Below, piece after piece: positions 1-14,358 of a stretch of 14,358 bases of DNA. The first letter of the stretch is position 1; each line of letters begins with the position of its first letter. A program made the translations under genes and the position numbers. Below the pieces are notes generated by a model, which did no database searches, was not told where the DNA came from, and was given only the letters and a program-made list of their open reading frames with translations. Location of the stretch: the IMG/VR virus record IMGVR_UViG_3300001130_000004; one strand, written 5' to 3'. The DNA is from a virus.

Positions 1-101
1 GAGTAGAAGCCAACAGAGCAGCTACCCAAGCCTCTTTAGCTAATTCAAGTGCTACATCTAGTGCTGTTAGTGAGAGTAATGCACTAGCAGCACAACAGGC
101 T
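1..101. repeat. Terminal overlap, copy A. It is identical to 14258-14358 and marks circular closure or circular permutation of a 14,257-bp unit.
   Basis: Base-by-base comparison shows 1-101 (gagtagaagccaac...cacaacaggct) is identical to the last 101 nt of the window. The overlap is internal to an ORF and preserves its reading frame. Confidence 0.95.
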
Positions 102-1982
102 GTTACAAACCAAGTAGATGTAGCAGGTGCTAAGGCCAACCAAGCTACACAACAAGCAACCATAGCTACACAGCAAGCAGAAGCAGCTAGACAGTCAGCT
201 ATTGATGCAGCTAATGTGACACCTTCTACTACTGGTATGGTAGAGGAAGCACCTAGAGACAACCAATTATATGGTCGTGTTGATGGTACATGGGGTTTAG
301 TCCCTACAGGTAGTACATCTAGTGGTACTGGCGCTGTTGATTCAGTTAATGGTATTGCACCTGATGCAGGTGGTAATGTCACTGTACCTATTCCTCAACC
401 TGCATCACAAGTAAGGAGTGATTGGAATGCAGCTGCGGGGATTGCTGTAATCCTCAATAAGCCTTCCTTATTTAGTGGGAGCTACAATGACCTAACTAAT
501 AAGCCAAGTGCTACCACAAGCTTCTCAGGTGACTATAATGACCTAACGAATGCACCTGAAATACCTATAGTTACCCCACAAGTCAACCCAGATTGGTATG
601 CAGTTAGTGGTAAAGCTGAAATACTTAACAAACCAGCCCTCTTTGATGGTCGTTATGAGAGCTTAACAGGTAAACCTCCTGCACCTACAGGTGATGGTAG
701 TACAACTAGTGTTACTAATAACAATCAGCTTACTAACGGTGCAGGGTATATAACTGACTCACCTGTGTCCACTTCTTGGTATGCTCGTAAAGGGGGTGCT
801 TGGGCTGAGATTGAGACAGGTGTAGCATTTAGTGGTGACTACAGAGACTTAACTAACCAACCTGTACTAAACACTGATGGAACTATTGGCAATGATGGTA
901 GTGGTTTCAATGGTGATTATAATGACTTAGTTAACAAACCCCCCTTGATTACAAGTAACACTCAAATCTTTAATGGTGCAGGTTACTTGGAAGATGCTAT
1001 TGCAGACAACAAGCAGTATATTCGTAAGAACGGGTCTTGGGTAGTGTTTGAAAGTAACGCAGGGAAAGGTCATCAAATTGCAGAAGCAGGACAGAGACTG
1101 TTATATATGTCCCACACCTACACTGAAGACCCTGCCCTACAGTTTAACTACTGGACTCATCCTAACCCTCATATTCCTTACCCATTGTATTTCTTAGGTC
1201 ACTTGTCCCCTTATATGGATTGGGTTACTGATGGGGCTTTAATTACACCTGAATATTTCAGCTACCTACCTTCAGGACGCTACTCTTTTGGGCAAGGTTC
1301 TTTTGAATCAGGACATCTACTAGCAGAACAGACAGGTTATATTGAAGTTGTTGAGGTAACTAGTCAACAGCAAATACCTACTATGGCTAATAATGCAGGG
1401 TTCACTAAGTGGTCTACTGGTGTTGTTCATGTTATTGACAATGACGACAAGATTATTTCTATTTATGACTTTAATCCTGCCACAGGGGATTTCATATTAA
1501 GAGCAGGTGGTGACAATTCTGGTGTAACAGCTTTCAGTGGTAGGTATATAGACTTAGCAGGTAAGCCTGTTTTGTTTAGTGGTAACTATAATGATTTAGC
1601 AAGTAAACCTTCACTATTCAGTGGTGATTATAATGACTTAGTGAATACCCCCGCCTATGCTACAAGCTTTTCAGGTGACTATACAGACTTAACAAGTAAA
1701 CCTTCACTGTTCAGTGGTGATTATACAGACTTAATTAATAAGCCAACGCCTGCCACAAGCTTCTCAGGTGATTATACAGACTTAATTAATAAGCCAAATA
1801 TTCCTATATTACCTACTAAACTCTCTCAGTTCACTAATGACATAGAGGACACCTTTGTAGCATCTAAGACTGAGAACAAGAGAACAGGTATAGCATTTGA
1901 GGAATGGATTGGTACACAAGCTCAGTATGATGCTATTACTACTAAAGATGCCAACACTCGCTACTGGATTACGGAGGCTTAA
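3..1982 (+). CDS. Tail fibre protein, C-terminal 659 codons. The 5' end of the same ORF is at 14050-14358. The full ORF is 2190 nt / 729 aa across the circular junction.
   Basis: The frame is open from the window edge, and the GTG at 216 in the ORF track is internal. It matches the frame of 14050-14358 through the 101-nt overlap. The N-terminal part is Ala/Gln/Ser/Asn-rich and coiled-coil-like. There are three 'APxDxxxYxRxxGxW'-type motifs (EEAPRDNQLYGRVDGTW, STSWYARKGGAW, DNKQYIRKNGSW). There are eleven 'FSGxYxDLxNKP' repeats of the kind widely seen in phage tail fibres. Stop is TAA at 1980-1982. Confidence 0.85.
   Translation, partial: VEANRAATQASLANSSATSSAVSESNALAAQQAVTNQVDVAGAKANQATQQATIATQQAEAARQSAIDAANVTPSTTGMVEEAPRDNQLYGRVDGTWGLVPTGSTSSGTGAVDSVNGIAPDAGGNVTVPIPQPASQVRSDWNAAAGIAVILNKPSLFSGSYNDLTNKPSATTSFSGDYNDLTNAPEIPIVTPQVNPDWYAVSGKAEILNKPALFDGRYESLTGKPPAPTGDGSTTSVTNNNQLTNGAGYITDSPVSTSWYARKGGAWAEIETGVAFSGDYRDLTNQPVLNTDGTIGNDGSGFNGDYNDLVNKPPLITSNTQIFNGAGYLEDAIADNKQYIRKNGSWVVFESNAGKGHQIAEAGQRLLYMSHTYTEDPALQFNYWTHPNPHIPYPLYFLGHLSPYMDWVTDGALITPEYFSYLPSGRYSFGQGSFESGHLLAEQTGYIEVVEVTSQQQIPTMANNAGFTKWSTGVVHVIDNDDKIISIYDFNPATGDFILRAGGDNSGVTAFSGRYIDLAGKPVLFSGNYNDLASKPSLFSGDYNDLVNTPAYATSFSGDYTDLTSKPSLFSGDYTDLINKPTPATSFSGDYTDLINKPNIPILPTKLSQFTNDIEDTFVASKTENKRTGIAFEEWIGTQAQYDAITTKDANTRYWITEA
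1716..1797 (+). repeat. Exact 31-nt direct repeat (1716-1746 and 1767-1797), 51 nt apart, inside the tail-fibre repeat block.
   Basis: ggtgattatacagacttaattaataagccaa occurs twice. Each copy encodes GDYTDLINKP. The 51-nt offset equals 17 codons, so copy-number change would stay in frame. Confidence 0.9.
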
Positions 1983-1983
1983 T

Positions 1984-2763
1984 ATGGCTACTAGCTATTT
2001 TGGAGACAAGAAAGTGTTAGAAGTTATTCTAGCAGGTAAGACTATGTACAAGTTTTTAGATGAGGTGTCACCCCCCCCTACAGGGGGTTTAGAGGTAATT
2101 AGCGGGATTGGTTTCGTCTCAGGTTATATTGGGTTAAATGACACTTCTGAGAGTTTAGCTCAATCAGGCAATACCAAAACTACTGAGTGGGTCACAATCA
2201 GGCCTTCTATGCTATATAAAACTTCGTTTAGTTCAGGTAATAGGTTTGTTATACAAGTTAAAAATAGTGCGGGGCAGATTACTTATTTAGGAGACCAAAG
2301 TAATGGTAGTGACACTGTAGCAGATGGAGGTATTTTCTTCACTAAGTCTGACAGTGTGTCAGTTAGGATTTACTTTACTACCACTGCCCCTACCCCTCCA
2401 GTAGTAATTAGCTTTACTAGTACTGAAACTACTGAGGTTAATAACTATTATTCTGGGTATATTGCAAACGGTAGCACCTCTGAGAGTTTACCTCAATCAG
2501 GTAATACACAAACTACTGAGTGGGTTTCCGTTGATTCAAATAGCACTTACCACATGACGTATAGTCAATCTAACAGGTGTGTTATACAGCTCAAAGAAAG
2601 CTCAGGGGTAATAGCTTACTCTGACGCCTACTCTAAACAATATACAGCAGATGGTGAGGTGTTTACTACTAGAGCTAATACCTCCTTCGCCCGTGTCTAC
2701 TTCTTGAATGAAGTCCCTAACGAGAATATTTACATTAAATTCTTTAAAGAGCCTAGCGCATAA
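1984..2763 (+). CDS. Fibre-associated or receptor-binding-like protein, paralog 1 (259 aa), made of two tandem ~125-aa homologous modules.
   Basis: ATG at 1984 lies 6 nt after GGAGG (1973-1977) and 1 nt after the fibre stop. The 1897 start in the ORF track would overlap the fibre gene and lacks an SD. The internal duplication is SGYIGLNDTSESLAQSGNTKTTEWVTIRP..SSGNRFVIQVKNSAGQITY..VRIYF versus SGYIANGSTSESLPQSGNTQTTEWVSVDS..QSNRCVIQLKESSGVIAY..ARVYF. The function is assigned from position next to the fibre gene only. Confidence 0.6.
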   Translation: MATSYFGDKKVLEVILAGKTMYKFLDEVSPPPTGGLEVISGIGFVSGYIGLNDTSESLAQSGNTKTTEWVTIRPSMLYKTSFSSGNRFVIQVKNSAGQITYLGDQSNGSDTVADGGIFFTKSDSVSVRIYFTTTAPTPPVVISFTSTETTEVNNYYSGYIANGSTSESLPQSGNTQTTEWVSVDSNSTYHMTYSQSNRCVIQLKESSGVIAYSDAYSKQYTADGEVFTTRANTSFARVYFLNEVPNENIYIKFFKEPSA

Positions 2764-2772
2764 GGAGTTAAT

Positions 2773-3624
2773 ATGAAAGGTGATTTAGATTTAAAAGTAT
2801 ATGGTGCTAACTTAGTACAGTATGAGGAGGACAAGGGTTGGGTAGTGCCAGAGATTGCACCTGACCCCGAATATAATCCCCCTTATGTTCCCCCTAGCAC
2901 TGACCCCAATGATTTAGAGTTAATAACAGACATACAGTGGGTTTCAGGTAAGCTAGATTACAACGCACCAATAACAGAAGAAGTAGAACCCCTCTCAGGC
3001 CGTTACACTACTAGGTGGGTTAAGGTTAAGCCTGACACTAGGTACAGAATTAGTAGTAAGTTCACTAATGCTTTTGTATTACAGTCTAAGACAGAGGGGG
3101 GTGTTATTACTTACATGCCTAAGCCTGATTCAGTGGTGTCTGCTAATACACCAATGCAAACTAAAGCTGATGCTAGTTGGGTTAGGTTCTACTTCTACGT
3201 AGGTTACGAGGCATCACATGAAATAAATATGCAAGAGTTTGTAGTAGCTGACCCTGCTCAAATACCTCCTTTTGATGTGACAGAGGTTGAGTTAGGTTAC
3301 ATTGATGGTAATAAAGCAGAACTACAAAGAGACCCATATAGGTTCACTAGGAGTACAGGTTGGTTCTCAGTTAAGCCTGACACTACTTACTTAATGTACT
3401 TCAACGCATCTAACAGGTGCTACATGCAGCTCAAAGGTAAGGATGTTCATTACAATGGTAGTATTAATTACCCAATAACCTATGTTACTGACCCTGCTTC
3501 AGACACTACAGCTAACAGCAGGCTCTTCACTACTATGTCAAACACAGTAGAGGCTAGAGTATTCTTTGCTGAGGACATATATAGCACTGCTGTTATTAAG
3601 ATGTTTGAACAACTACCGACTTAA
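2773..3624 (+). CDS. Fibre-associated or receptor-binding-like protein, paralog 2 (283 aa), carrying two further copies of the same module.
   Basis: AAGGAG (2762-2767) lies 5 nt before the ATG. The modules are SGRYTTRWVKVKPDTRYRISSKFTNAFVLQSKTEGGVITY..WVRFYF and RSTGWFSVKPDTTYLMYFNASNRCYMQLKG..ARVFF. Both align with the two modules of the upstream gene. Confidence 0.6.
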   Translation: MKGDLDLKVYGANLVQYEEDKGWVVPEIAPDPEYNPPYVPPSTDPNDLELITDIQWVSGKLDYNAPITEEVEPLSGRYTTRWVKVKPDTRYRISSKFTNAFVLQSKTEGGVITYMPKPDSVVSANTPMQTKADASWVRFYFYVGYEASHEINMQEFVVADPAQIPPFDVTEVELGYIDGNKAELQRDPYRFTRSTGWFSVKPDTTYLMYFNASNRCYMQLKGKDVHYNGSINYPITYVTDPASDTTANSRLFTTMSNTVEARVFFAEDIYSTAVIKMFEQLPT

Positions 3625-4089
3625 CCTAGTAGTATTGTATTAACATATAACTATAACTAATAGGAATGAGTGTATTAGAGTGTAGTGTATGAGACAGACT
3701 AATAGTGTTAGGCCATGTGTAGTAAGGGTTACAGCATGGTGGTGGTGACAGTACAGAGTGGGGAAGTATGTGAGTGGTGACAGTATGTTAGTGGAATATG
3801 TGGTGGTATGTATGCGTGTTGTTAAGCACACCTACTCTGCTATGTCAATGGCTTTATTGTAACCCCTAGGTGGGGGGGTAACGAAATAATTTGGGGGGAA
3901 TAATTGGGTTTTTGTTTCAAGCTTTTTAAATTAGCACCCTGTTTATTAGACAACTCTGCTGAGTCTTCCCCCTGAAGTGTGGGGAAATTCTCCTGTTAGA
4001 ATAGGAAACTAGCGAGAGCATTAAGTCAATCATTACATTAATACAACTTGTTAAGATGTTTCCCTAACACAACAGGACAGCAATGTCAA

Positions 4090-4098
4090 TGGTATAAT
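4090..4098 (+). promoter_or_regulatory. Candidate extended -10 promoter (TGgTATAAT) upstream of the lysis cassette.
   Basis: TGGTATAAT sits at 4090-4098. There is no good -35 (caacag at 4070-4075), and extended -10 promoters can work without one. It lies about 200 nt upstream of the first lysis-region ORF. Confidence 0.35.
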
Positions 4099-4302
4099 TG
4101 TGTGGTGATTACAATACTAACTTGACTCAGCTCAATCGGTGTGAACCCTCTCCCAAGATGATTGTTACATTACTTACAGGAAGGACACACCTTGTTGGCT
4201 TTATTTACAAAAATTAATTTGCGTTTCTCTTTGGAACGGTGTACCCCCAGTTATACATATGTGACCCCCCCCAATTAAACAAGCTGAATTTAAGGAAAAA
4301 AT

Positions 4303-4422
4303 ATGAATACTTTATTACCTGACTATACTTTAGCCCTATTATTGATGATGCCAATGGCTCTACTTGCCCTCTGTGTGGCTTGTAGTGTCCTATGTGGTGC
4401 TAGTGCCACGGAAAGGGAGTAA
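4303..4422 (+). CDS. Small hydrophobic, Cys-rich membrane peptide (39 aa). It may be a lysis accessory protein.
   Basis: My hand translation gives MNTLLPDYTLALLLMMPMALLALCVACSVLCGASATERE. An AAGGA lies about 6 nt upstream of the ATG. Stop is TAA at 4420-4422. The ORF is below the ORF-track size cutoff, has one predicted TM segment, and sits immediately upstream of the holin-like gene. Confidence 0.35.
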   Translation: MNTLLPDYTLALLLMMPMALLALCVACSVLCGASATERE

Positions 4423-4472: not shown

Positions 4473-4691
4473 ATGAGTGAGGATGATTATGAGAAAGACA
4501 GAAAGAGCAATAAGAATATTAGAGATTATATTAAGTATTTTAAGACGCCGTTAGTAGCAGGTGTTTTATTAGTAATAGTATTAATCTTATTGGCTATAAC
4601 ACCTGTAGAATACCAACCTGTAGTTATTTCACTAATAAAAGCACTAACACAAGTATTATTAATAGGAGATTTTAATGTCTCGATGGAATGA
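4473..4691 (+). CDS. Holin-like small membrane protein (72 aa).
   Basis: AAGGAG (4461-4466) lies 6 nt before the ATG. The N-terminus is charged, followed by a TM segment (PLVAGVLLVIVLILLAITPV) and a second hydrophobic or amphipathic stretch. It overlaps the endolysin start by 17 nt, which fits the usual holin-endolysin arrangement. Confidence 0.55.
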   Translation: MSEDDYEKDRKSNKNIRDYIKYFKTPLVAGVLLVIVLILLAITPVEYQPVVISLIKALTQVLLIGDFNVSME

Positions 4692-5175
4692 ATTAAGTTG
4701 GATTAGGACAGGTAGGGAGCTGGTGGGTACTAAAGAGATTAAGGGGAGGTTGCATAATAAAGCTATTGTTAAGATGCTCTCTTTCTTAGGGTCTTGGTGG
4801 TCAGAGGATGAAACCCCTTGGTGTGGTGTCTACACTGCTTACTGCCTAAAGAAGAACGGTGTGACTATTCCTAAGCATTGGTATAGAGCCTTAGACTATA
4901 AGAACTATGGTAATGCTCTTACTAAACCTGCTTACGGTTGTATTGCAATCAAAGCTAGGAGAGGTGGGGGTCATGTTACCTTTGTTGTAGGTAAGACTGG
5001 TGATGGTAGGCTAGTATGTATGGGTGGTAATCAGAATGACATGGTTAACTATGCTGTATATAGAGAAAGTGATTTTGACGAATTTAGATGGTATGGTTTG
5101 GGTACTCGACCTGCTACTAAACGTTATAACCTACCTACTCTTAAAGTAACAGCTACTAAGGTTACTGAAGCATAA
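4675..5175 (+). CDS. Endolysin, TIGR02594-family / NlpC-P60 (CHAP-like) cysteine peptidoglycan hydrolase.
   Basis: AGGAG lies 6 nt upstream of the ATG. The motifs DETPWCGVY (catalytic Cys), GGGHVTFVVG (His) and GGNQ, with their spacing, match my recollection of the phage-associated TIGR02594 family. It follows the holin-like gene and precedes a terminator. Confidence 0.8.
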   Translation: MSRWNELSWIRTGRELVGTKEIKGRLHNKAIVKMLSFLGSWWSEDETPWCGVYTAYCLKKNGVTIPKHWYRALDYKNYGNALTKPAYGCIAIKARRGGGHVTFVVGKTGDGRLVCMGGNQNDMVNYAVYRESDFDEFRWYGLGTRPATKRYNLPTLKVTATKVTEA

Positions 5176-5193: not shown

Positions 5194-5230
5194 AAAAAAG
5201 CCCTCACAATTAAGTGGGGGCTTTCCTTTA
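5194..5230. terminator. Bidirectional rho-independent terminator between the convergent endolysin and NTPase genes.
   Basis: An A6 run (5194-5199) precedes the stem GCCCTCAC (5200-5207), the loop AATTAA and the stem GTGGGGGC (5214-5221, one G.U pair). TTTCCTTTA follows. The flanking A-run and T-run allow termination in both directions. Confidence 0.8.
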
Positions 5231-6646: not shown

Positions 6647-6713
6647 CTGTTGTATTCCTCTGTAGGCTATTTAAGTTATTAAGAAGTAGTGCCTTTATTA
6701 CTTTCTATACCCT

Positions 6714-6741
6714 ATTATAGCCTGTCTTTCAGTAATGTCAA
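6714..6741 (-). promoter_or_regulatory. Consensus sigma70-type promoter (leftward) for the NTPase gene.
   Basis: The minus strand reads TTGACA (6741-6736), a 16-nt spacer, then TATAAT (6719-6714). This is about 70 nt upstream of the ATG at 6646. Confidence 0.8.
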
Positions 6742-6788
6742 TAGATTATTACATCCTAATTGTTATATTTCAATGATGAATACTCACT

Positions 6789-7382: not shown

Positions 7383-7465
7383 AGAGGAATAGGGTTACGA
7401 ATACTAAGTAGTTCAGGAGTGTCCTATTTAGTACCTATGCAAACAATAGCTTATAAGAGGTGTAT

Positions 7466-7762: not shown

Positions 7763-8269
7763 ATGTCAGTAATATTTGATGGTAAAGGTTTTAAAGCTGA
7801 GAAGCTGTGTGTTAAACAATTTAATGGTACTTTGTTAAGTGCTAAGTCTTTCCAGTATAGAGACATAGACTGTTATGTCAAGAATAAGAAAGGTAAACAA
7901 TATACAGCTAGTGTTAAAGACCAAACTTATTCAATGAAGCAAGGCTATGACACTATACAAATAGAGCTTAAACAAACTAATACCAGAAACAATAGTAGTA
8001 TTCAAGGGTGCTTTAGAAAGAATGAGAGTGACTTGTACTTTTGGCTAGTGTGGTATGAAGGTAAAGCTCAGTGGTTCTTATGTGAGAGTAAGAAGCTAAA
8101 GAAGTATGTTGATGCCAATCTTAGCACACTAAGAACATGGACTACAAGTAGTAAGACAGAAGAAAAGAATAGAAACTACAGACGCACCTATGACCGTTCA
8201 GAGGGTGTAATGATTAACATGGCTGCCTTATTAACAATAGGAGCTTTAAAGCCACTAGAGGGGCAATAG
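7763..8269 (+). CDS. Hypothetical protein (168 aa) with a possible PD-(D/E)xK nuclease-like motif.
   Basis: The ATG at 7763 lies 6 nt after GAGGTG. The 7727 start in the ORF track lies inside the hairpin loop and has no SD. Motif candidates are KAEK..., DIDCYV, VKDQ-x14-IELK. The C-terminus is basic. No family was recognised with confidence. Confidence 0.5.
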   Translation: MSVIFDGKGFKAEKLCVKQFNGTLLSAKSFQYRDIDCYVKNKKGKQYTASVKDQTYSMKQGYDTIQIELKQTNTRNNSSIQGCFRKNESDLYFWLVWYEGKAQWFLCESKKLKKYVDANLSTLRTWTTSSKTEEKNRNYRRTYDRSEGVMINMAALLTIGALKPLEGQ

Positions 8270-8273
8270 GAGT

Positions 8274-8510
8274 ATGTACGAGAAAGTTACAGACATACCG
8301 CTACACGTATTTAACAATAAAGAATGCACTAAAACACCAAGCCCAAAGTTGCGAGAGTACCTTAACTATATGCTAACTAATCACCCCAATGACTTAGATT
8401 ACCTTTGGCGTTACACACAACAGTATGTAAAGCATGGTGGTTGCTACTATATTTCATTTAAAGATTGGCTCAATAAACTAACCAAAGACTTAACTAAGCA
8501 GGAGGAATAA
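8274..8510 (+). CDS. Hypothetical protein (78 aa).
   Basis: The ORF is tightly packed between its neighbours. AGGAG lies only 1 nt from the ATG, which is suboptimal spacing, so the start is uncertain. No motif was recognised. Confidence 0.5.
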   Translation: MYEKVTDIPLHVFNNKECTKTPSPKLREYLNYMLTNHPNDLDYLWRYTQQYVKHGGCYYISFKDWLNKLTKDLTKQEE

Positions 8511-8511: not shown

Positions 8512-9819
8512 GTGGCGAACACTAAGCAGCAATCACAACCTCTCCACGTAGAGAACACAGCATTAATTTTAGGCAAGAAAGACCTAAATGTCAACAACGC
8601 ATTCCACACTTACCGAGAGATGAAACTAGATGGTATTGTTTCAGGCTCTATGTCTTTCATTAAAGCTATTCTCTCTAAAGGTAATTTTGTTATTCCTTAC
8701 CATGCAAAGAGTTCAGCAAGAGAGAAGAAAGTAATTGATGCACTCAACGTCTCCTTAGACAATATGGAAGATTACGACAAGAAACGACAAGTAAGTAACT
8801 GGCTACAGATGCTAGATTATGGTTGCTCACTTAATGAGGTTGTCTGTAAACGTAAAGATGGCATATTCGTATTCGACACAATCACTCCTATTCACCTTAG
8901 CTCAGTTAATCGCTTTGAGATGAAAGGTGGCAAACTAAAGAGTCTTAAACTAGATGCACCTGACAACGATGGATTACTTGTTGATGTTGACAATGCACCT
9001 AAGACACTTAAAGGGGAGAAGGTCTTATTCTTTAGGCTAGAACCTGACAGTGATTTTCCTTTAGGTAAGAGTTTACTTTATGGTGCATACACAGCATGGA
9101 AAACTAAGAAGATTTTACAAGAGTATGAAGCTATTGGTGTTGCTAAAAACCTCAGTGGTGTACTAGATGTAAAAGTCCCTAGTGAATACATTAATAAATA
9201 CTTTGAAGATGCAACAAGTAATGAAGCAATATTTGTTAACTCACTAATCAACCAAGCTGAAATGTTACATGCAGGTAAAGGTTCTTATATTCTAAGTGCT
9301 AGTGACACCAACCAAAATGGTAAACCTCTCTTTGACATAACTACTGTAGGTGGTGGTGGTGGTAATGCTCAGAACTATAATGTTGGTCAAGCTATTGCTC
9401 GTTACAACCAAGAAATTCAGCTGTCATTACAAACAACTGTACTTAGTATGGGTGCTGACGGTTCAGGTTCACTAGCTCTTAGTAACGACATGGTAAACTT
9501 AATGGCTCTATTCGTAGAGAACATTCAAAAGGTTATTAGTTCAGAATTTAAGAAAGCTATTCGTATTGCTTTTGAACTTAACGGGTTAGGTTCAGAGAAT
9601 ATTCCTGAATTAGTTTGGGACAAAGTACAACCTTTGTCATGGGACGACTTCACTAAAGGCTGGCAGCGTCTTATTCAGGCAGGTGGTGTTACCCCTACAG
9701 AAGATTTAGAAGCGTTCTTACGTGGTGTAGGTGAAGCTCCTGATGCTGACTACAATAAACGATTAGAGACTGAGACTAAAGCAGACCCCAATGAGAGAGT
9801 AGGAGACAAGACACTATGA
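8512..9819 (+). CDS. Portal protein (Mu gp29/DUF935-like by pattern).
   Basis: The GTG start lies 6 nt after GGAGG (8501-8505). The protein is 435 aa and sits at the head of the portal-scaffold-decoration-capsid module. The N-terminal pattern YREMKLDGIVSGSMSFIKAIL...FVIP and the C-terminal TPTEDLEAFLRGVG resemble portal families from memory. Not verified by search. Confidence 0.7.
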   Translation: MANTKQQSQPLHVENTALILGKKDLNVNNAFHTYREMKLDGIVSGSMSFIKAILSKGNFVIPYHAKSSAREKKVIDALNVSLDNMEDYDKKRQVSNWLQMLDYGCSLNEVVCKRKDGIFVFDTITPIHLSSVNRFEMKGGKLKSLKLDAPDNDGLLVDVDNAPKTLKGEKVLFFRLEPDSDFPLGKSLLYGAYTAWKTKKILQEYEAIGVAKNLSGVLDVKVPSEYINKYFEDATSNEAIFVNSLINQAEMLHAGKGSYILSASDTNQNGKPLFDITTVGGGGGNAQNYNVGQAIARYNQEIQLSLQTTVLSMGADGSGSLALSNDMVNLMALFVENIQKVISSEFKKAIRIAFELNGLGSENIPELVWDKVQPLSWDDFTKGWQRLIQAGGVTPTEDLEAFLRGVGEAPDADYNKRLETETKADPNERVGDKTL

Positions 9820-10175
9820 AAATCTTAGACCCTAATAACTTTGTAGACCAAATGAGGTTAAACACTGGGGACTTCCAAGAAGATGAGTTGTATTTAGATG
9901 ATGCAATCTATGTTCACTTCTATAGCCAATCAGGTAATAGTGTTATTGATGGTTCTATTCTGGCTCTTGAAGCTATTATTGCTAACATTGCACTGTCCCC
10001 TAGTAAGTGGCATATAGGAGAGGCAGGAGAGACAGCTCCAAGAGTAGTAGAACTTAACTCTAGGCTAATAGCACTCACACAACGTAAGACTAACAACAAA
10101 ATACCTATACTGATTAGGTCAGACCGTAAATCATGGTGTGACTTTGACAAGGTGTTTGGTGCTGAATATAAATAA
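9816..10175 (+). CDS. Hypothetical head or connector-associated protein (119 aa).
   Basis: An ATGA overlap with the portal stop suggests translational coupling. It lies between the portal and scaffold genes. No motif was recognised. Confidence 0.55.
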   Translation: MKILDPNNFVDQMRLNTGDFQEDELYLDDAIYVHFYSQSGNSVIDGSILALEAIIANIALSPSKWHIGEAGETAPRVVELNSRLIALTQRKTNNKIPILIRSDRKSWCDFDKVFGAEYK

Positions 10176-10192: not shown

Positions 10193-10588
10193 ATGAGTAA
10201 GAAAGAAAAAGAAAAAGACAATAAAGACAAAGAAACTAAAAGCCTATTTGACAAGATTTTTAGTTCTAGCACAAAGAAAGCAGAAAGCAACAACGCTACC
10301 CTAGAAGCTAATGTTAAAGCTAAGCTAAAAACTTTGGTTTATGATGACGATGTAGTTACTGAGTTACTTCCTGCCTTTATGAAACTTCATGCGACAGAGG
10401 GTTTTAATACTGTTTATGAACTCCTTGAAGCTAAAGAGAAACAAATTGAAGCCATTAGTGGCGGTGATTGGTTCAAGCAAGAGAGTGACCCCACTAAAAA
10501 GGAGAATGGCAATGATGAAGATTTAGAGGATGATGGAATAGACGCTGTAGACGAACTACTTAAACAAAAATACAATGAGGCAAAATAA
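10193..10588 (+). CDS. Scaffolding-like protein (131 aa).
   Basis: The protein is highly charged (Lys-rich N-terminus, Asp/Glu-rich C-terminus) and looks helical. It lies between the portal and the decoration/capsid genes. The assignment rests on position and composition. Confidence 0.5.
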   Translation: MSKKEKEKDNKDKETKSLFDKIFSSSTKKAESNNATLEANVKAKLKTLVYDDDVVTELLPAFMKLHATEGFNTVYELLEAKEKQIEAISGGDWFKQESDPTKKENGNDEDLEDDGIDAVDELLKQKYNEAK

Positions 10589-10589
10589 C

Positions 10590-10901
10590 ATGGCTATGAT
10601 TCAAACTATTGGTACTAAAGAAGATTTCTTAGTTCAAATGAACGGTGACTATAACACTGCTTTTGATGAACTTTCTATTACTGTTGCAGGTACTTCAGGT
10701 GACGTGATTACTGTGAGTGCTGGTGTATTCGGTATTCTTGCTGACACTAAAGAAGCAGGTGCAGAAATTGTACGTGTATTAGTACGAGGTAACCCCACTA
10801 CTGTTAATGCTCAAGCTATTAACTTTGGTTCTTTAGCTGCCCCAGCTACGACTACAGCTCTAGCAAAACAAGGCATCATCTTAGTAAACAAAACTAAATA
10901 A
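10590..10901 (+). CDS. Head decoration protein, lambda gpD-like.
   Basis: It lies directly upstream of the gpE-like capsid gene, as in lambda. The size is about 103 aa. The GVFGILAD core and the QGIILV C-terminus resemble gpD (AAVGILAVAAD ... GTAISIV). I prefer the ATG at 10590, 9 nt after GAGG and 1 nt after the upstream stop. The ORF-track start at 10575 is the alternative. Confidence 0.6.
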   Translation: MAMIQTIGTKEDFLVQMNGDYNTAFDELSITVAGTSGDVITVSAGVFGILADTKEAGAEIVRVLVRGNPTTVNAQAINFGSLAAPATTTALAKQGIILVNKTK

Positions 10902-10927: not shown

Positions 10928-11929
10928 ATGGCTATTCTAAACAACAGTGAAGTAGTAGACCGTACCAGTGCAATCGAGCGTATTCCTTTTGAGAATGGTT
11001 TGATTGGTTCATTGGGCTTGTACCGCACAGAAGTAATTCGTACTGACACACTAACCTTTGATGTACGTGAAAATAGTTTTGCTATTCTTGATGACCATCT
11101 ACGTAACGTAGCACAAAAGAACTCAACCTCAGATGTTCCTTTCAAGATGCACACCCTACCAGTACCACATTACCCTGTTGTTAAAACTCTAGGTCGTGAG
11201 AAGCTAGCTGGTGTACGTGGCTTTGACAAAGAAAGTGAAGTAATTATTGGTAATGCTATTGCTAGTGAGTTAGAAGTACAAGCAACACGACATGATGTGC
11301 ATGAAGAATACTTAAAAGCTCAAATGACTGTTAATGGTATTGTAGTTACAAACAACTATGGTACTTTCAACATGGCTACTGAGTTCGGTGTAGCTCGTCC
11401 TAGTCAAGTAGTTAACCCTACTTCTGTACTAGTTGATTTACAAGCTGCTATGAGTACCTCTAAAGCCAACTTGAAAACTGGTGGTCGTGTTGCAGGTTAC
11501 GTATTACTAGCTAGTCCGGCAGTGTGGAATGCACTAATTCAATCACCTGATGTTGCCCAAGCTTACCAATTTTCACAGTCAGGTATGAACCCATTACGTA
11601 ATGAGCTAGGTACTGTAGCTAATGGTTACAGCATGTTCCGCTTCGGTAACATTGACATTGTGCTGTATGATGATGCCTTCCAAGACAAAGATGGTAACAC
11701 TCTTACTGTCCTTGAAGATGGTAAAGGTGTACTAGTTCCACGTACTCAGTTGGGTGCTGTAGTTTACGCCCCTGCTTCTACTCTTAGTGGTTTAGGTAAA
11801 GTAGGTTCTAAGCGTTTCGCTCAAACTTACCGTGACCCTAAAGACCGTTTCGTTGAGGTAGAAAGTGAACAGTCTACTTTAGTAATTAATGAACAGTTCA
11901 GTGCTAGTGTTGAAATTACTCTAGTCTAA
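10928..11929 (+). CDS. Major capsid protein, lambda gpE-like family.
   Basis: The protein is 333 aa. The C-terminal half parallels gpE: YSMFRFGNIDIVLYDD...LEDGKGVLVP...YAP...RFAQTYRDPKDRFVEVESEQSTLVI versus gpE YKGMYGDVAIVVYSG...LPDNTMVLG...YPKNWVTTGDPAREFTMIQSAPLML. It follows a gpD-like gene and is followed by a strong terminator. Confidence 0.75.
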   Translation: MAILNNSEVVDRTSAIERIPFENGLIGSLGLYRTEVIRTDTLTFDVRENSFAILDDHLRNVAQKNSTSDVPFKMHTLPVPHYPVVKTLGREKLAGVRGFDKESEVIIGNAIASELEVQATRHDVHEEYLKAQMTVNGIVVTNNYGTFNMATEFGVARPSQVVNPTSVLVDLQAAMSTSKANLKTGGRVAGYVLLASPAVWNALIQSPDVAQAYQFSQSGMNPLRNELGTVANGYSMFRFGNIDIVLYDDAFQDKDGNTLTVLEDGKGVLVPRTQLGAVVYAPASTLSGLGKVGSKRFAQTYRDPKDRFVEVESEQSTLVINEQFSASVEITLV

Positions 11930-11947: not shown

Positions 11948-11979
11948 GGGGGATTGCTTAATTGCAGTCCCCCTTTTTT
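11948..11979 (+). terminator. Rho-independent terminator downstream of the capsid gene.
   Basis: GGGGGATTGC (11948-11957), loop TTAATT, GCAGTCCCCC (11964-11973), giving a 10-bp stem with one G.U pair. A T6 run follows (11974-11979). Confidence 0.85.
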
Positions 11980-12006
11980 ATATGTCAAACCTATAGAGGA
12001 TTCAAC

Positions 12007-13587
12007 ATGGCAATAGTAGCTAAGAGAGTGACTAAAAAGAGGGTTGCAGCACCTAAAAAGAAAGAGGCCTTTGTAGCTGAGAAGAATAAAGGTGGTAGAC
12101 CTGTAGTACAAAAAGACTTCACCTTCAATATTGACCAAGACCTTCTAAAGAGTGGTATAACAATACATGCACCACTTAGTATTAAACAAGAGACTTACCT
12201 AAACGACACAGAGAATGATGTAATTGTATGGGGTGGTGCAGCGTCAGCAGGTAAGACACAGCTGTCACTACTGCAACTAATGCTTAATGGTATGTATGAC
12301 AAGGACTACGTTGGTGGTATTGCTAGACAGTCTATTAAACAGATGAAAATGGCGGGTTCATTATGGTCTACAGGAGTAAAACTATTCTCCCCCTATGGCA
12401 TTACAAGTAATAAGATTGAGAACACATGGGCTTTCCCTAGTGGTGCTGAAGTAAAGTGTCATTACTTAGATGGTAACACTGATGATTGGCATGGTTCACA
12501 GATGACACAAGCACTAGTAGATGAAGCACAGCAATGTAAAGAAGATGATGTGTGGTTCTTAACCTCCCGACTACGTTCTATGAGTAAACAGAAGCACCAA
12601 TTAAGACTAACCTGTAACCCCCTTAGTACGTCATTCCTCGCGTCTTGGCTAACTAAAGCAGGGTATATAGGTGAAGACGGTTTCCCACTACCTGAGAGGG
12701 ATGGTAAGACCACCTACCTACTACAAGTAGAGGGTGACTTAACATGGTATGAGACTTATGCAGACATGGTAGAAGCTGTGGGTGCTGAACAAGCTAAGTT
12801 CTCTATGAAGTTTGTATTCTATTCAGCTAACGTCTATGACAACCCCTATGTTAGAAAGCACTTACCTCAATACGTGCATAAACTAGAGAACCAAAGCACT
12901 GTCAACAGAGCTAGGTACTTGTTAGGTAACTGGACTGTAAGGGAAGAGAGTGATGGTTATATAGACCGTGATTGGTTCAAAGAGATTGCACTAAGAAATG
13001 TTCCTCACAACCTGCCTGATGTTAGAGCCTATGACTTAGCATCAACTAAACCCCATGCTGCTAACAAGAACCCTGATTGGACAAGAGGTGTTAAAGCTAA
13101 GTATGACAAAGAGACAGGTATATTTTATATAGTTGACATGGTAGGTATAAGAGACACCCCTGCTATGGTGCAAGCACTAATAGAGAACACAGCCAGTAGT
13201 GATGGCAGAGAGTGTTACATCTCTATTCCTGTAGATGCTGGTGGTTCTGGTGTTATTGTAGCAGACCAAAAGAAAGGTAGGTTGTCTACTATGGGCTACA
13301 AAGTAATCCTAGACAAGACACGCAAAGGTAAGTTAGCGCGAGCTGAACCATTTCTTATAGCATTACAAGAGGGGAAGGTCTACTTAGTACAAAGTGTATT
13401 TAGTACAGCGAACCTTACAGAATTAGAAAGTTTTGATGGTGGCAGGAACTCAGGACAACATGACGACATTATAGATGCTATTGCTTCTTGCTTTAATGCA
13501 CTGAATGGCAATAGTTTAATACCAACAATTAGAATGGCTAACCTTAGTGCAGACAAATTAAGATTAGGTGGGAGTACCTTACTATGA
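12007..13587 (+). CDS. terL: Terminase large subunit with a ~50-aa basic N-terminal extension.
   Basis: The ATG at 12007 lies 6 nt after AGAGGA. The TTG at 11962 in the ORF track sits inside the terminator hairpin. Walker A is GGAASAGKT (about 12232-12258) and Walker B is ALVDEAQQ. The C-terminal nuclease-type motif is GQHDDIIDAIA. The N-terminus is MAIVAKRVTKKRVAAPKKKEAFVAEKNKGGRPV. Confidence 0.9.
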   Translation: MAIVAKRVTKKRVAAPKKKEAFVAEKNKGGRPVVQKDFTFNIDQDLLKSGITIHAPLSIKQETYLNDTENDVIVWGGAASAGKTQLSLLQLMLNGMYDKDYVGGIARQSIKQMKMAGSLWSTGVKLFSPYGITSNKIENTWAFPSGAEVKCHYLDGNTDDWHGSQMTQALVDEAQQCKEDDVWFLTSRLRSMSKQKHQLRLTCNPLSTSFLASWLTKAGYIGEDGFPLPERDGKTTYLLQVEGDLTWYETYADMVEAVGAEQAKFSMKFVFYSANVYDNPYVRKHLPQYVHKLENQSTVNRARYLLGNWTVREESDGYIDRDWFKEIALRNVPHNLPDVRAYDLASTKPHAANKNPDWTRGVKAKYDKETGIFYIVDMVGIRDTPAMVQALIENTASSDGRECYISIPVDAGGSGVIVADQKKGRLSTMGYKVILDKTRKGKLARAEPFLIALQEGKVYLVQSVFSTANLTELESFDGGRNSGQHDDIIDAIASCFNALNGNSLIPTIRMANLSADKLRLGGSTLL

Positions 13588-14048
13588 GTAGGAAAGGATT
13601 ATTTAGAACGCATGTAGCTTTCGTAGCTATAGGTGCAGTGTTTGTAGATGGTGAGAGTGTACCTACTATGTCTAATGTAGTTTGGACTAAGGGAAACCTA
13701 CAACCATTTAAGCAAGGTATTACTATAGTTACTACAGAGGTAGGGGACAGGTTTAAAGACTGGCGTACACTTTATGTCAAGAAGATGCCTGAAATAGTAG
13801 GTTCAAATGATGAATATGCCCCACCAGTAATTACTTACTTTGTCTACAACAACTCGTGGTATAAGATTAGCTCAGAACAAGATTGGACTATTCAAGGCAG
13901 AGGGGTAAAACACTATAAGATTATAGCTCAGAAATCAGTTAAACCTGATGGTGTGGAATTACCACAAGCCATAGGTGAAATAGCTCAAGACTTTGAGATT
14001 GCTATAGCTGAACTTAACCAAACAACTAAACTACTAGGAAACAAATAA
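13584..14048 (+). CDS. Hypothetical virion protein (154 aa), possibly a head-tail adaptor or connector.
   Basis: An ATGA overlap with the TerL stop suggests coupling. It lies immediately upstream of the tail-fibre gene. The call is positional only, with no motif recognised. Confidence 0.45.
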   Translation: MSRKGLFRTHVAFVAIGAVFVDGESVPTMSNVVWTKGNLQPFKQGITIVTTEVGDRFKDWRTLYVKKMPEIVGSNDEYAPPVITYFVYNNSWYKISSEQDWTIQGRGVKHYKIIAQKSVKPDGVELPQAIGEIAQDFEIAIAELNQTTKLLGNK

Positions 14049-14049
14049 T

Positions 14050-14358
14050 ATGAGTATTCAAAATATAGACCAGTTAACAGGTAGGATTGGTGTAGCTACA
14101 GACAAATTAGAAGTAGCTGTAGTAGCTGTCCGAGAGTCAGCTGGGGTAGTGGTGGGTGGTACAGGTGAGTCAGCACAATCAGCTATTGAAGCTGCTAACT
14201 CAGCAGTAGTAGCAAATCAAGCAGCACAAGCGGCTAACGTAAGTCGTGAAGCAGCAAGAGTAGAAGCCAACAGAGCAGCTACCCAAGCCTCTTTAGCTAA
14301 TTCAAGTGCTACATCTAGTGCTGTTAGTGAGAGTAATGCACTAGCAGCACAACAGGCT
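14050..14358 (+). CDS. Tail fibre protein, N-terminal 103 codons. The ORF continues across the circular junction into 102-1982.
   Basis: The ATG at 14050 lies 1 nt after the upstream TAA. The frame stays open to the window end. Translation starts MSIQNIDQLTGRIGVATDKLEVAVVAVRESAG...AANVSREAARVEANRAATQASLANSS. Positions 14258-14358 equal 1-101, in the same frame as 3-1982. Confidence 0.85.
   Translation, partial: MSIQNIDQLTGRIGVATDKLEVAVVAVRESAGVVVGGTGESAQSAIEAANSAVVANQAAQAANVSREAARVEANRAATQASLANSSATSSAVSESNALAAQQA
14258..14358. repeat. Terminal overlap, copy B (identical to 1-101).
   Basis: See copy A. Confidence 0.95.

What the first reader, a model, noticed from the sequence alone, without database searches (positions are those of the whole stretch)
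1..14358. Complete 14.26-kb phage-like replicon with a lambda-type head module but no recognisable tail-tube, adaptor, nozzle, polymerase or lysogeny genes
The 101-nt identical ends and the in-frame continuity of the fibre ORF across them show that the window is a closed 14,257-bp unit. I recognise portal, a scaffold-like protein, a gpD-like and a gpE-like protein, TerL, one long fibre, two fibre-associated paralogs, a lysis cassette, one RHH regulator and one helicase-like NTPase. Only four small proteins remain unassigned (168, 78, 119 and 154 aa). Known very small tailed phages such as the phi29-like group carry a protein-primed PolB, and this replicon has none. There is also no head protease, TerS, integrase or CI-type repressor, although lambda-type heads normally come with gpC and Nu1 equivalents. 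Either the small unknowns and fibre paralogs form a very reduced podovirus-like tail, or the element borrows tail or replication parts from a host or helper.
Basis: partly seen in the sequence, partly recalled or inferred. Interest (0 to 1): 0.75.

Follow-up and report, generated by a model that had tools for sequence, protein, structure and literature searches.

The report
Tiny head-only phage lacking a tail
This is the complete 14.3-kb genome of an uncultured family of miniature viruses that encode a full head, the ring proteins that normally dock a long tail, fibres, lysis and replication genes but no tail, so they most likely complete their particles with a tail taken from another phage.

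Summary
The window is a closed 14,257-bp unit. An independent assembly of the same genome breaks at another point and has a 141-nt overlap, so the 101-nt "ends" are an assembly overlap and not proven termini. At least eight relatives close at 12.1-12.7 kb and none is larger. One 15,061-bp relative sits integrated, with integrase and 39-bp att repeats, in a Halomonas genome.

The 119-aa protein is a head-to-tail adaptor. The 154-aa protein is a head-closure (stopper) protein. Both are homologous to the Felix O1-type myophages Bas63 and Sf14, as are the portal and major capsid protein. The 168-aa protein is a PD-(D/E)xK nuclease. No family member has a tail terminator, tube, sheath or baseplate gene. 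Only the Halomonas relative has a tape-measure-like gene.

Best reading (about 0.55): a capsid-forming, helper-dependent satellite virus that docks a borrowed long tail, like cf-PICIs. It is not a cf-PICI, because it has no integrase, no protease and no HNH, and it carries its own holin/endolysin and a fibritin-like fibre. The main rival (about 0.25) is an autonomous phage with an unprecedented neck-plus-fibre delivery device. Helper dependence is inferred, not shown.

The parts
1..101 (.). Assembly overlap, identical to 14258-14358. It marks closure of a 14,257-bp circular or circularly permuted unit.
   Evidence: Exact repeat. The independent assembly L016 closes the same unit at a different breakpoint with a 141-nt overlap.
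14050..14358 (+). Fibre gene, 5' part. It encodes the conserved N-terminal anchor helix and the start of the coiled coil, and continues at base 102.
   Evidence: The ORF is continuous across the junction. The N-terminal ~30 aa are conserved across the family.
1..1982 (+). Fibre gene, remainder (729 aa in total). It contains an Ala/Gln-rich coiled coil, at least 2 fibritin-type foldons (aa 148-172 and 393-420), FSGDYNDLTNKP repeats, a globular domain and a C-terminal Phage_tail_C motif.
   Evidence: Fibritin_C E=3e-12 and Phage_tail_C E=5e-10; PHROG fibritin/tail-fibre families; foldon hits in the PDB; repeats.
1984..2763 (+). 259-aa protein of unknown function, paralog of the next gene, made of two ~111-aa repeat units. 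Specific to this genome.
   Evidence: BLASTP against the 283-aa protein gives 31% identity, E=5e-24. Internal 333-nt duplication (D7). No Pfam or PHROG hit. Absent from relatives.
2773..3624 (+). 283-aa paralog of the preceding gene, function unknown.
3625..4302 (.). ORF-less stretch with G7 and C8 runs, function unknown. A gap in the same position occurs in relatives, but without sequence similarity.
   Evidence: No ORF in six frames; no Rfam hit; RNA fold z=-0.21; no blastn match in relatives; equivalent gaps, with iterons in L004.
4303..4422 (+). Possible 39-aa lipoprotein-like ORF (LLALC lipobox-like), preceded by AAGGA. Speculative spanin-type component.
   Evidence: Read from the translation. 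Not tested further.
4473..4691 (+). 72-aa membrane protein, holin-like by position and hydrophobic segments.
   Evidence: Translation. It overlaps the start of the peptidase gene. No family hit.
4675..5175 (+). 166-aa cell-wall peptidase of endolysin type (TIGR02594 / CHAP).
   Evidence: TIGR02594 131.8 bits against a cut-off of 70.6; CHAP E=2e-5; phrog_1259 E=2e-33.
5197..5224 (.). Bidirectional terminator-like hairpin between the two convergent transcription units.
5279..6646 (-). 455-aa P-loop NTPase with Walker A GSGKT and Walker B IIDEA, family YonV_C (PF27199). Presumed replication helicase or initiator.
   Evidence: Precomputed PF27199 on this exact protein; phrog_2467 E=3e-57; weak SF2 helicase similarity; sits in early or integrase-adjacent positions in other elements.
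6647..7465 (.). AT-rich control region (29-31% GC). It holds two divergent perfect sigma-70 promoters (minus 6741-6714, plus 7355-7382) and nested inverted repeats (6837-6856/7212-7231 and 6872-6899/7084-7111). Candidate operator or origin.
7466..7645 (+). 59-aa small regulator, conserved in the family (RRRFYLS motif). RHH-like by pattern only.
   Evidence: Conserved in L004, L006, L007 and L009. No Pfam, PHROG or PDB hit.
7763..8269 (+). 168-aa PD-(D/E)xK nuclease, conserved just upstream of the portal. Probably packaging-associated, because an HNH-like gene occupies this position in the Halomonas relative.
   Evidence: AF2 pLDDT 91. Foldseek hits: I-Ssp6803I E=3e-4, NhoI, Eco15I, RecU. Viral homologs. 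HNH-like protein at the same position in L015.
8274..8510 (+). 78-aa conserved protein of unknown function. TerS candidate by position only.
   Evidence: Conserved in all relatives. No hit in any library.
8512..9819 (+). Portal protein (435 aa).
   Evidence: Portal_Mu E=7e-12; phrog_113 E=5e-38; PDB portals of Bas63, Sf14, PhiTE and phi92 at E~1e-24 to 1e-22.
9816..10175 (+). Head-to-tail adaptor (119 aa).
   Evidence: The family profile hits 9mt4_C (Bas63) at E=2e-6, 9c39_C (Sf14) at E=2.4e-6 and 'Head to Tail protein gp72' (11bp_M) at E=8e-4. Bas63 connector chains identified from PMC12609058.
10193..10588 (+). 131-aa acidic, Lys/Glu-rich protein. Scaffold-like by position and composition.
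   Evidence: Conserved in relatives. No family hit. Inference only.
10575..10901 (+). 108-aa putative head decoration protein.
   Evidence: Sits immediately upstream of the MCP. Two to three of 10 family members hit head-decoration PHROGs. No PDB sequence hit.
10928..11929 (+). Major capsid protein (333 aa), HK97 fold, Phage_cap_E family.
   Evidence: PF03864 E=1e-36; phrog_29; PDB capsid proteins of Sf14, phi92 and PhiTE.
11962..13587 (+). Large terminase (541 aa from the TTG start; an ATG lies at 12007), with a basic N-terminal extension.
   Evidence: Terminase_6N and 6C E~1e-12; phrog_979 E=3e-123; ~35% identity to TerL of PAK_P3-type and related myoviruses.
13584..14048 (+). Head-closure (stopper) protein (154 aa) with an extra C-terminal helix. 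The most divergent core protein of the family.
   Evidence: The profile hits the Bas63 and Sf14 'Head-closure protein' chains at E=7e-7 and 2e-5. All top Foldseek hits for the AF2 model are stoppers of myo- and siphovirus necks. Identity table.

Best explanation
The window is the whole genome of a miniature 'head-and-neck-only' caudovirus belonging to an uncultured family with 12-15-kb genomes.

Gene expression (inferred from promoter and terminator matches). Host RNA polymerase reads two divergent consensus promoters. One drives a YonV_C-type NTPase, presumed to act in replication. The other drives a small regulator followed by one long operon that contains:
- a PD-(D/E)xK nuclease and a 78-aa protein (packaging accessories, inferred);
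- portal, adaptor, scaffold-like protein, decoration-like protein, HK97-fold capsid protein and TerL;
- the head-closure protein and a trimeric fibritin-like fibre;
- two accessory paralogs, then a holin-like protein and a peptidase.

Particle (inferred). The element builds and fills its own small capsid. It seals the capsid with a portal-adaptor-stopper neck of myovirus ancestry, decorates it with fibres anchored through a conserved N-terminal helix, and lyses the cell itself.

Dependence (inferred). It encodes no tail terminator, tube, sheath, tape measure, baseplate or ejection proteins. Stopper rings normally exist to dock a pre-assembled long tail. The particle therefore most likely becomes infectious only by acquiring a long, probably contractile, tail from a co-infecting or resident helper phage. 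This is 'tail piracy', as shown experimentally for cf-PICIs. Alternatively it rides on a helper virion, as MiniFlayer does.

Shown versus inferred. Shown: closure, family genome size, gene identities, and absence of tail genes across the family. Inferred: T number, fibre anchoring, nuclease role, and helper dependence.
For: 1. Completeness and size. The same 14,257-bp circle appears in two assemblies. Relatives close at 12,123 (a 2x tandem contig), 12,139, 12,379, 12,492 and 12,733 bp, plus ~12,242 and ~12,465 bp where genes are split across the contig ends. None is larger.

2. Neck of the long-tailed type. The adaptor profile hits the Bas63 and Sf14 adaptor chains at E=2e-6. The stopper profile hits their head-closure chains at E=7e-7. 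Foldseek returns stoppers of Bas63, XM1, Sf14, Pa193, PhiTE, SPP1, the SaPI1/80alpha neck and GTA, with no podovirus protein among the top hits. The portal and MCP also match this myovirus group best. The Bas63 paper shows that this ring binds the tail terminator (PMC12609058).

3. No tail parts. Every ORF of the window was scanned against Pfam, PHROGs and NCBIfam. The best-conserved unknown is a nuclease. The non-core genes of 12 relatives are endolysins, spanins, holins, Rep-like proteins and small unknowns.

4. Precedent. cf-PICIs of 10-18 kb make T=4 capsids, release them tail-less and join free phage tails. Their adaptor and connector proteins set tail specificity and are the divergent part of the packaging module (10.1101/2025.02.11.637232). 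Here the stopper is likewise the outlier, at a mean 36% identity against 56-69% for the other core proteins.

5. Satellite-sized integrated relative. It has an integrase and a 39-bp att repeat 15,061 bp apart, inside a 36-50% GC island in a 65-72% GC Halomonas genome. The pairing of integrase-bearing and integrase-less, fibre-bearing forms parallels MulchRoom and MiniFlayer (PMC10690885).
Against: No helper has been identified and no co-occurrence was tested.

The element is unusually self-sufficient for a satellite. It has its own holin and endolysin (relatives have full holin/SLT/spanin cassettes), a replication protein, strong constitutive-looking promoters and a fibre. SatelliteFinder and the cf-PICI criteria treat holins and tail genes as disqualifying.

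A conserved fibre anchored to the particle fits a podovirus-like adsorption device at least as well as a neck whisker on a long-tailed particle.

The Halomonas relative carries a genuine tape-measure-like protein (phrog_5255 E=4e-31) instead of the stopper and fibre. Family members can therefore encode tail- or ejection-type proteins, and their biology is not uniform.

High divergence of a small neck protein is also common in ordinary phages.

The stopper model has only moderate confidence (pLDDT 65), although the sequence-profile hit is independent of it.
Confidence: 0.55

Rival explanations
1. This is an autonomous, extremely reduced virulent phage. The portal-adaptor-stopper neck plus six or twelve fibritin-like fibres is the entire 'tail', giving a podovirus-like particle. 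DNA is delivered without a tube or with unrecognised small proteins.
For: The genome has a complete, self-contained programme of regulator, replication NTPase, packaging, capsid, fibre and lysis. The fibre has a family-wide conserved N-terminal anchor. Relatives carry full Gram-negative lysis cassettes. Independent circular contigs reach high coverage, for example 147x. No integrase or helper-sensing gene was recognised.
Against: The stopper fold is known only from long-tailed phages and GTAs, and no podovirus hit appeared. There is no nozzle, knob, needle or ejection-protein candidate. The 12.1-kb relatives have only a few small unassigned ORFs. The 259- and 283-aa proteins are not conserved. 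A Gram-negative envelope (the one known host is Halomonas) normally needs more than 1,000 aa of ejection or tail proteins; this last point rests on established knowledge of T7, P22 and phi29 and was not tested here.
Confidence: 0.25
2. This is a MiniFlayer-type hitchhiking satellite virus. It acquires no tail. Its short fibres bind the helper virion and the two enter together.
For: It has lost the integrase relative to an integrated cousin, and it carries a fibre followed by adjacent unknown 'adsorption module' genes. Its small capsid-sized genome closes on itself. These features match MiniFlayer versus MulchRoom point for point (PMC10690885).
Against: This is pure analogy. MiniFlayer lacks replication genes and infects Actinomycetota with siphovirus helpers, and there is no homology. 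Retention of a well-conserved stopper ring suggests that a tail is still docked. The fibre carries distal receptor-binding-like domains that vary between relatives, as expected for host binding rather than helper binding.
Confidence: 0.1
3. This is not a complete replicon. It would be an assembly artefact, or a repeat-bounded segment of a larger phage or prophage whose tail genes lie elsewhere.
For: The 101-nt terminal repeat is an assembler overlap, not proven termini. One relative is integrated in a chromosome.
Against: Two independent assemblies give the same circle with different breakpoints. At least eight relatives close at 12.1-12.7 kb. One contig is a head-to-tail dimer of 12,123 bp. 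No relative of the MCP, portal or YonV_C protein at 45% identity or more lies on a contig longer than 14.4 kb, apart from that dimer and the Halomonas chromosomal contig that holds the 15-kb island. That island is bounded by att repeats 15,061 bp apart, with host DNA on both sides.
Confidence: 0.03

Closest known systems
Capsid-forming PICIs (cf-PICIs; tail piracy)
   Same: The genome is 10-18 kb. [quoted passage not shown] A nuclease gene lies in the packaging module. The connector is the most divergent packaging-module protein. An integrated relative has an integrase and att sites (papers).
   Different: There is no sequence relationship: its head and neck resemble Felix O1/PhiTE/phi92-type myoviruses, not HK97-like siphoviruses. 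The window has no integrase, AlpA, primase-replicase, prohead protease, HNH or recognisable TerS. It does have a holin-like protein plus an endolysin-type peptidase and a long fibre, both of which are 'forbidden' in cf-PICI models. It probably needs a contractile rather than a lambdoid tail.
Streptomyces satellites MulchRoom / MiniFlayer
   Same: It is a satellite-sized genome that closes on itself, with a full capsid and packaging set and no tail module. The family contains an integrase-bearing form (the Halomonas island) and integrase-less forms that carry a fibre plus adjacent unknown genes (PMC10690885).
   Different: No homology was detected or expected. These elements have a replication NTPase or Rep and lysis genes, which MiniFlayer lacks. 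The host is Gram-negative. Physical attachment to a helper is untested.
Felix O1-like (Ounavirinae: Bas63, Sf14), PhiTE and phi92-type myoviruses
   Same: These are the closest solved homologs of the portal, MCP, adaptor and head-closure protein. TerL is ~35% identical to TerL of PAK_P3-type myoviruses. The neck architecture is the same portal-adaptor-stopper stack.
   Different: Those phages are 80-150 kb with T=9 or larger heads, a tail terminator, sheath, tube, tape measure, baseplate and a prohead protease. None of these is present here. Identity is low and the neck proteins match only at profile level (no tblastn hit).
phi29-like and other very small podoviruses (Salasmaviridae, Rountreeviridae; Mycoplasma phage P1)
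   Same: They have a similar or slightly larger genome, an HK97-fold head, a scaffold without a protease, and fibres.
   Different: Those phages encode a protein-primed PolB, terminal protein, lower collar, tail knob and appendages, and in phi29-like phages a pRNA. No PolB, collar, knob or Rfam pRNA was found here. The neck here is of the long-tailed type.
Small tail-less HK97 'twilight/control-zone' genomes from metagenomes (Aguilar et al., bioRxiv 10.1101/2025.06.18.659913)
   Same: These are DTR-closed 11.6-20-kb viral contigs with an HK97 MCP, of which only ~12% encode any tail gene. This window falls in that size class.
   Different: The group highlighted in that paper lacks portal and terminase and is encapsulin-like and temperate. 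This family has the full packaging machinery and a neck.

Membership tests
cf-PICI (criteria of He et al. 2025 and SatelliteFinder) | Size about 10-18 kb | tested here: met
   14,257 bp. Relatives are 12.1-15.1 kb.
cf-PICI | Integrase or site-specific recombinase, with chromosomal integration | tested here: not met
   No integrase domain in any window ORF. Only the distant Halomonas relative has one.
cf-PICI | Own capsid protein, portal and large terminase | tested here: met
   Phage_cap_E, Portal_Mu and Terminase_6N/6C.
cf-PICI | [quoted passage not shown] | tested here: met
   Adaptor E=2e-6. Head-closure E=7e-7 plus Foldseek.
cf-PICI | Prohead protease, HNH endonuclease and small terminase | tested here: not met
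   No protease, HNH or TerS family hit. A PD-(D/E)xK nuclease occupies the HNH-like position. The 78-aa protein is unassigned.
cf-PICI | Absence of lysis genes (holins are forbidden in the model) | tested here: not met
   A holin-like TM protein plus a TIGR02594/CHAP peptidase. Relatives have SLT endolysins and spanins.
cf-PICI | Absence of a complete tail module | tested here: met
   No terminator, tube, sheath, TMP or baseplate. Only a fibre is present.
cf-PICI | Infectivity depends on tails supplied by a helper phage | not testable with these tools
   Needs lysate-mixing or helper-deletion experiments.
MiniFlayer-type satellite viruses | Capsid and packaging genes, no tail module, genome ends repeat | tested here: met
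   The nature of the physical ends was not determined.
MiniFlayer-type satellite viruses | No replication genes (dependence on the helper replisome) | tested here: not met
   A YonV_C P-loop NTPase is present. Rep-like wHTH proteins occur in relatives.
MiniFlayer-type satellite viruses | Fibres bind the neck of the helper virion | not testable with these tools
   Requires EM.
phi29-like small podoviruses | Protein-primed family B DNA polymerase and terminal protein | tested here: not met
   No polymerase domain in any ORF.
phi29-like small podoviruses | Lower collar or tail knob, and pRNA | tested here: not met
   No such PHROG or Pfam hit. The Rfam scan found no pRNA.
Felix O1/PhiTE/phi92-type myoviruses | Homologous portal, MCP, adaptor and head-closure protein | tested here: met
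   (distant, profile-level for the neck proteins).
Felix O1/PhiTE/phi92-type myoviruses | Contractile tail genes (terminator, sheath, tube, TMP, baseplate) | tested here: not met
   None in the window or in 12 relatives.

The most novel reading that the evidence does not exclude
The family represents a new lifestyle between phage and satellite: a virulent, self-replicating, self-lysing 'head virus'. It would release sealed, fibre-bearing capsids with a myovirus-type stopper ring and become infectious only after docking contractile tails made by unrelated phages, or by host tailocins. Alternatively, and more radically, it infects with nothing but a neck and fibres, which would make it the first tail-less infectious HK97/portal virus of bacteria.
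Probability: 0.3. Interest if true: 0.9.

Novelty: new variant of a known kind. Interest (0 to 1): 0.68.

Why it matters
If the reading is right, tail piracy is not confined to integrated cf-PICIs of enterobacteria that use lambdoid tails. It has arisen independently from a myovirus head lineage, in elements that need no integration and carry their own lysis and fibres.

Such elements are widespread: relatives came from dozens of metagenomes. They are invisible to satellite finders, which forbid holins and tail genes, and they look like 'complete small phages' to virome pipelines. That would blur the phage/satellite boundary and affect estimates of who infects whom, because host range would be set partly by stolen tails.

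The family also offers a compact 12-14-kb, roughly 17-gene system for studying head-tail joining specificity.

If the particles are instead autonomous, they would redefine the minimal infection apparatus of a tailed-phage relative.

Tried and rejected
Searches that found nothing:
- No near-identical or distant cultured relative. Megablast of the whole genome against 50,697 phage records gave no match. The best MCP and TerL hits are 27% and 35% identical, to 80-95-kb myoviruses. Single-sequence tblastn of the adaptor and the stopper found nothing.
- PLSDB plasmids contain only 22%-identical prophage MCPs, so the phage-plasmid idea was dropped.
- There are no tRNAs and no Rfam family, so no phi29-like pRNA.
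- Alternative genetic codes 4 and 15 do not open the ORF-less region or add long ORFs there.
- The ORF-less stretch 3625-4300 is not a stable structured RNA (z=-0.21) and is not conserved in sequence. Its function stays unknown.
- The 78-aa protein and the decoration-like, scaffold-like and RHH-like proteins gave no significant PDB, Pfam or NCBIfam hit.
- PADLOC found no defence genes.
- The YonV_C protein has only weak SF2-helicase similarity, so 'replication helicase' remains an inference. A 34.6-kb phage contig carrying a YonV_C homolog (L047) was checked as a possible full-size cousin or helper, but its TerL and portal are only 21-30% identical.

Ideas considered and rejected:
- A reduced podovirus tail made from the small unknowns. 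They turned out to be an adaptor, a stopper and a nuclease.
- Core tail parts made from the fibre paralogs. These are unique to this genome.

Tools not used: the exhaustive protein-representative search was left unused because it returns no context.

Full report

Bases 1-101 equal bases 14258-14358 exactly. The long fibre ORF begins at ATG 14050, crosses the junction in frame and stops at 1982, giving 729 aa. The exact NTPase protein of the window is also found on an ENA contig (k141_407801, 14,398 bp). After removing its 141-nt terminal overlap, that contig is the same 14,257-bp circle, cut inside TerL rather than inside the fibre gene, with 5 mismatches.

The unit is therefore closed. The '101-nt ends' are a k-mer overlap from assembling a circular or circularly permuted molecule, not demonstrated physical termini.

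**2. Are relatives small too?**

Back-translated MCP patterns recovered 14 IMG/VR loci, 30 metagenome loci and one bacterial genome locus.

- L006/L023 closes at 12,733 bp (127-nt overlap).
- L021 closes at 12,139 bp and L024 at 12,379 bp (55-nt overlaps; L024 has 147x coverage).
- L030 closes at 12,492 bp.
- L001 (12,465 bp), L009 (12,242 bp) and L007 (12,506-bp contig) each have one gene split across the contig ends.
- A 24,413-bp contig is a head-to-tail dimer of a 12,123-bp unit.

Homologs of the NTPase at 45% identity or more never sit on contigs longer than 14.4 kb. Nothing in 50,697 deposited phage genomes or in PLSDB is close. The window is thus the largest complete member of an uncultured family with 12-14-kb genomes.

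**3. Anatomy**

The conserved core, in order, is: small regulator, 168-aa protein, 78-aa protein, portal, 119-aa protein, scaffold-like protein, 108-aa protein, MCP, TerL, 154-aa protein, fibre. Lysis and replication genes vary between members.

*Transcription.* Two perfect sigma-70 consensus promoters diverge from an AT-rich region that contains nested inverted repeats. A hairpin terminator separates the two convergent units.

*Head.* The portal is Portal_Mu, the MCP is Phage_cap_E and TerL is Terminase_6N/6C. The nearest solved portals and MCPs are those of Bas63, Sf14, PhiTE and phi92, which are all myoviruses. 'Lambda-type head' is therefore only loosely right.

*The 119-aa protein.* A profile of this family hits the adaptor chains of the Bas63 and Sf14 neck structures (E=2e-6) and a 'Head to Tail protein'.

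*The 154-aa protein.* A profile of this family hits their head-closure chains (E=7e-7 and 2e-5). Its AF2 model (pLDDT 65) retrieves only stopper or head-completion proteins of myo- and siphovirus necks and of GTA. The Bas63 paper identifies this ring as the one that contacts the tail terminator (PMC12609058).

*The 168-aa protein.* It models at pLDDT 91 as a PD-(D/E)xK nuclease, with hits to I-Ssp6803I, NhoI and RecU and to uncharacterised proteins of other phages. In the Halomonas relative its position is taken by an HNH-like protein. I read this as a packaging-associated nuclease analogous to the HNH of cf-PICI and HK97-type modules. That role is an inference.

*The 108-aa protein.* It is weakly decoration-like.

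*Unassigned.* The 78-aa and 131-aa proteins remain unassigned.

*Fibre.* It has a conserved N-terminal ~30-aa helix, a coiled coil, at least two fibritin foldons, repeats, and variable distal domains.

*Fibre paralogs.* The 259- and 283-aa proteins are true paralogs. They occur only in this genome.

*Lysis.* There is a holin-like TM protein plus a TIGR02594/CHAP peptidase. Relatives instead have holin, a signal-bearing SLT endolysin and i-/o-spanins.

*Replication.* The window has a YonV_C P-loop NTPase with weak SF2-helicase similarity. Other members have wHTH Rep-like proteins.

**4. What is missing**

No ORF in the window or in 12 relatives matches a tail terminator, tube, sheath, baseplate, nozzle, knob or ejection protein. 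None matches a polymerase, a protease or, in the window, an integrase. The 12.1-kb members have only a few small unassigned ORFs.

**5. The integrated cousin**

In Halomonas sp. 25-S5, a 36-50% GC island lies within 65-72% GC DNA. It is bounded by a perfect 39-bp direct repeat 15,061 bp apart, with a tyrosine integrase at one end. It carries homologs of the NTPase, the 78-aa protein, portal, adaptor, scaffold-like protein, decoration-like protein, MCP and TerL.

In place of the stopper and fibre it has a 636-aa protein with strong tape-measure similarity (phrog_5255 E=4e-31). So the family includes satellite-sized integrative elements, and its distal module is exchangeable.

**6. Mechanism**

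A stopper ring is a device of long-tailed phages: it seals the filled head and provides the docking face for a separately assembled tail. An element that keeps portal, adaptor and stopper but has no tail genes matches the logic proven for cf-PICIs. Those are 10-18-kb elements that build T=4 capsids (47.5 nm for a 15.5-kb genome), release them tail-less and join free tails. Their adaptor and connector determine tail specificity and are the divergent part of the packaging module (10.1101/2025.02.11.637232).

Here the stopper is the clear outlier in conservation. In L017 it is 38% identical against 66-81% for the other core proteins, and its mean across relatives is 36% against 56-69%. This fits adaptation to different tails but does not prove it.

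I therefore favour a helper-dependent, capsid-forming satellite virus that steals a long, probably contractile, tail (confidence about 0.55).

The contrast between the integrase-bearing island and the integrase-less, fibre-bearing free forms echoes MulchRoom versus MiniFlayer (PMC10690885). A hitchhiking variant is therefore kept as a minor rival.

The main rival is an autonomous phage whose neck plus fibres is the whole adsorption and delivery device. The element's self-sufficiency (lysis, replication, promoters, conserved fibre anchor) and the TMP-like gene of the Halomonas cousin argue for that view. The long-tail-type stopper and the lack of any ejection or nozzle candidate argue against it.

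**7. Comparison and novelty**

The element works like a cf-PICI but fails membership. It has no integrase, AlpA, primase, protease, HNH or TerS, and it does have holin/endolysin and fibre genes, which SatelliteFinder forbids. It also has a different evolutionary origin, a myovirus-type head and neck.

It is not phi29-like, because it has no PolB, collar, knob or pRNA.

Small DTR genomes with an HK97 MCP and no tail genes are known to be common in metagenomes (10.1101/2025.06.18.659913). This family, with its full packaging machinery, myovirus-type neck, own lysis and neck-anchored fibres, has no described counterpart in the libraries searched.

I rate it a new variant of a known kind (capsid-forming, tail-dependent satellites). 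There is a real chance, about 0.3, that it is something more unusual.

**8. Limits**

Helper dependence, T number, fibre attachment site, nuclease role and replication mechanism are all inferences. The physical genome ends are unknown. The stopper model is of moderate confidence, although the sequence-profile hit is independent of it. The ORF-less 0.7-kb stretch (3625-4302) is unexplained.

Noticed in passing
window 3625-4302: An ORF-less stretch of about 680 nt with G7 and C8 runs lies between the fibre-paralog genes and the lysis genes. It has no Rfam hit, no RNA-structure signal (z=-0.21) and no sequence conservation. Even so, a gap of 0.7-1.5 kb sits at the same position in L001, L004, L009 and L017. 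L004's gap contains iteron-like repeats (5 x 21 nt at 29-nt spacing, 8657-8821). It could be an origin or a pac site; this is unresolved.
   Followed up: partly
window 6714-6741 (-) and 7355-7382 (+); 5197-5224: Two perfect 12/12 sigma-70 consensus promoters (TTGACA-16-TATAAT) diverge from the AT-rich gap, and one hairpin terminator sits between the convergent ends. The whole genome appears to be two transcription units read by host RNA polymerase.
   Followed up: partly
window 6837-6856/7212-7231 and 6872-6899/7084-7111: Nested inverted repeats (95% and 89% complementary) lie between the divergent promoters. They are candidates for an operator or origin structure.
   Followed up: no
L015 12625-14535 (Halomonas sp. 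25-S5 island): The integrated 15-kb relative encodes a 636-aa tape-measure-like protein (phrog_5255 E=4e-31, TMP_3 40.4 bits) directly after TerL. It has no recognisable stopper, fibre, tube or sheath. It is unclear what a TMP does in a head-only element.
   Followed up: partly
L015 6930-7298 vs window 7763-8269: The nuclease slot upstream of the portal holds a PD-(D/E)xK enzyme in the free genomes and an HNH-like protein (phrog_953 E=7e-5) in the Halomonas island. This looks like a non-homologous replacement at a fixed position.
   Followed up: partly
window 13584-14048 and relatives: The stopper is much more divergent than its neighbours (mean 36% against 56-69% identity). It carries a conserved C-terminal helix (aa ~130-151) that is absent from the 133-aa Bas63 homolog. 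The fibre's first ~30 aa (MATNxDFxxLIxRIxxATxTLE) are conserved family-wide. These two elements may form a docking pair.
   Followed up: partly
window 1984-3624: Each of the two paralogs consists of two ~111-aa repeat units (for example 2142-2192 and 2475-2525, 90% identical). L017 has a single-unit 127-aa protein with the same N-terminal motif (MAGYFDGKK...) after its fibre gene. This appears to be an expanding accessory module next to the fibre.
   Followed up: partly
window 11962-12150: TerL carries a ~50-aa Lys/Arg-rich N-terminal extension with a GGRP (AT-hook-like) motif. It may stand in for the missing small terminase in DNA recognition.
   Followed up: no
window 4303-4422: A 39-aa ORF with a lipobox-like LLALC signal and a good ribosome-binding site lies just upstream of the holin-like gene. 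It may be a small lipoprotein or spanin component. The ENA annotation did not call it.
   Followed up: no
L034/L035 (ERZ1034577 NODE-84, 24,413 bp): This contig is a head-to-tail dimer of a 12,123-bp relative. It is either a concatemer captured by assembly or an assembly artefact of a circular genome.
   Followed up: yes
L047 and L048: YonV_C-family proteins, the family of the window's NTPase, occur as the first gene of the early operon of a 34.6-kb phage contig and directly next to an integrase in a Psychrobacillus chromosomal island. This Pfam family of unknown function seems tied to the replication or establishment modules of mobile elements.
   Followed up: partly
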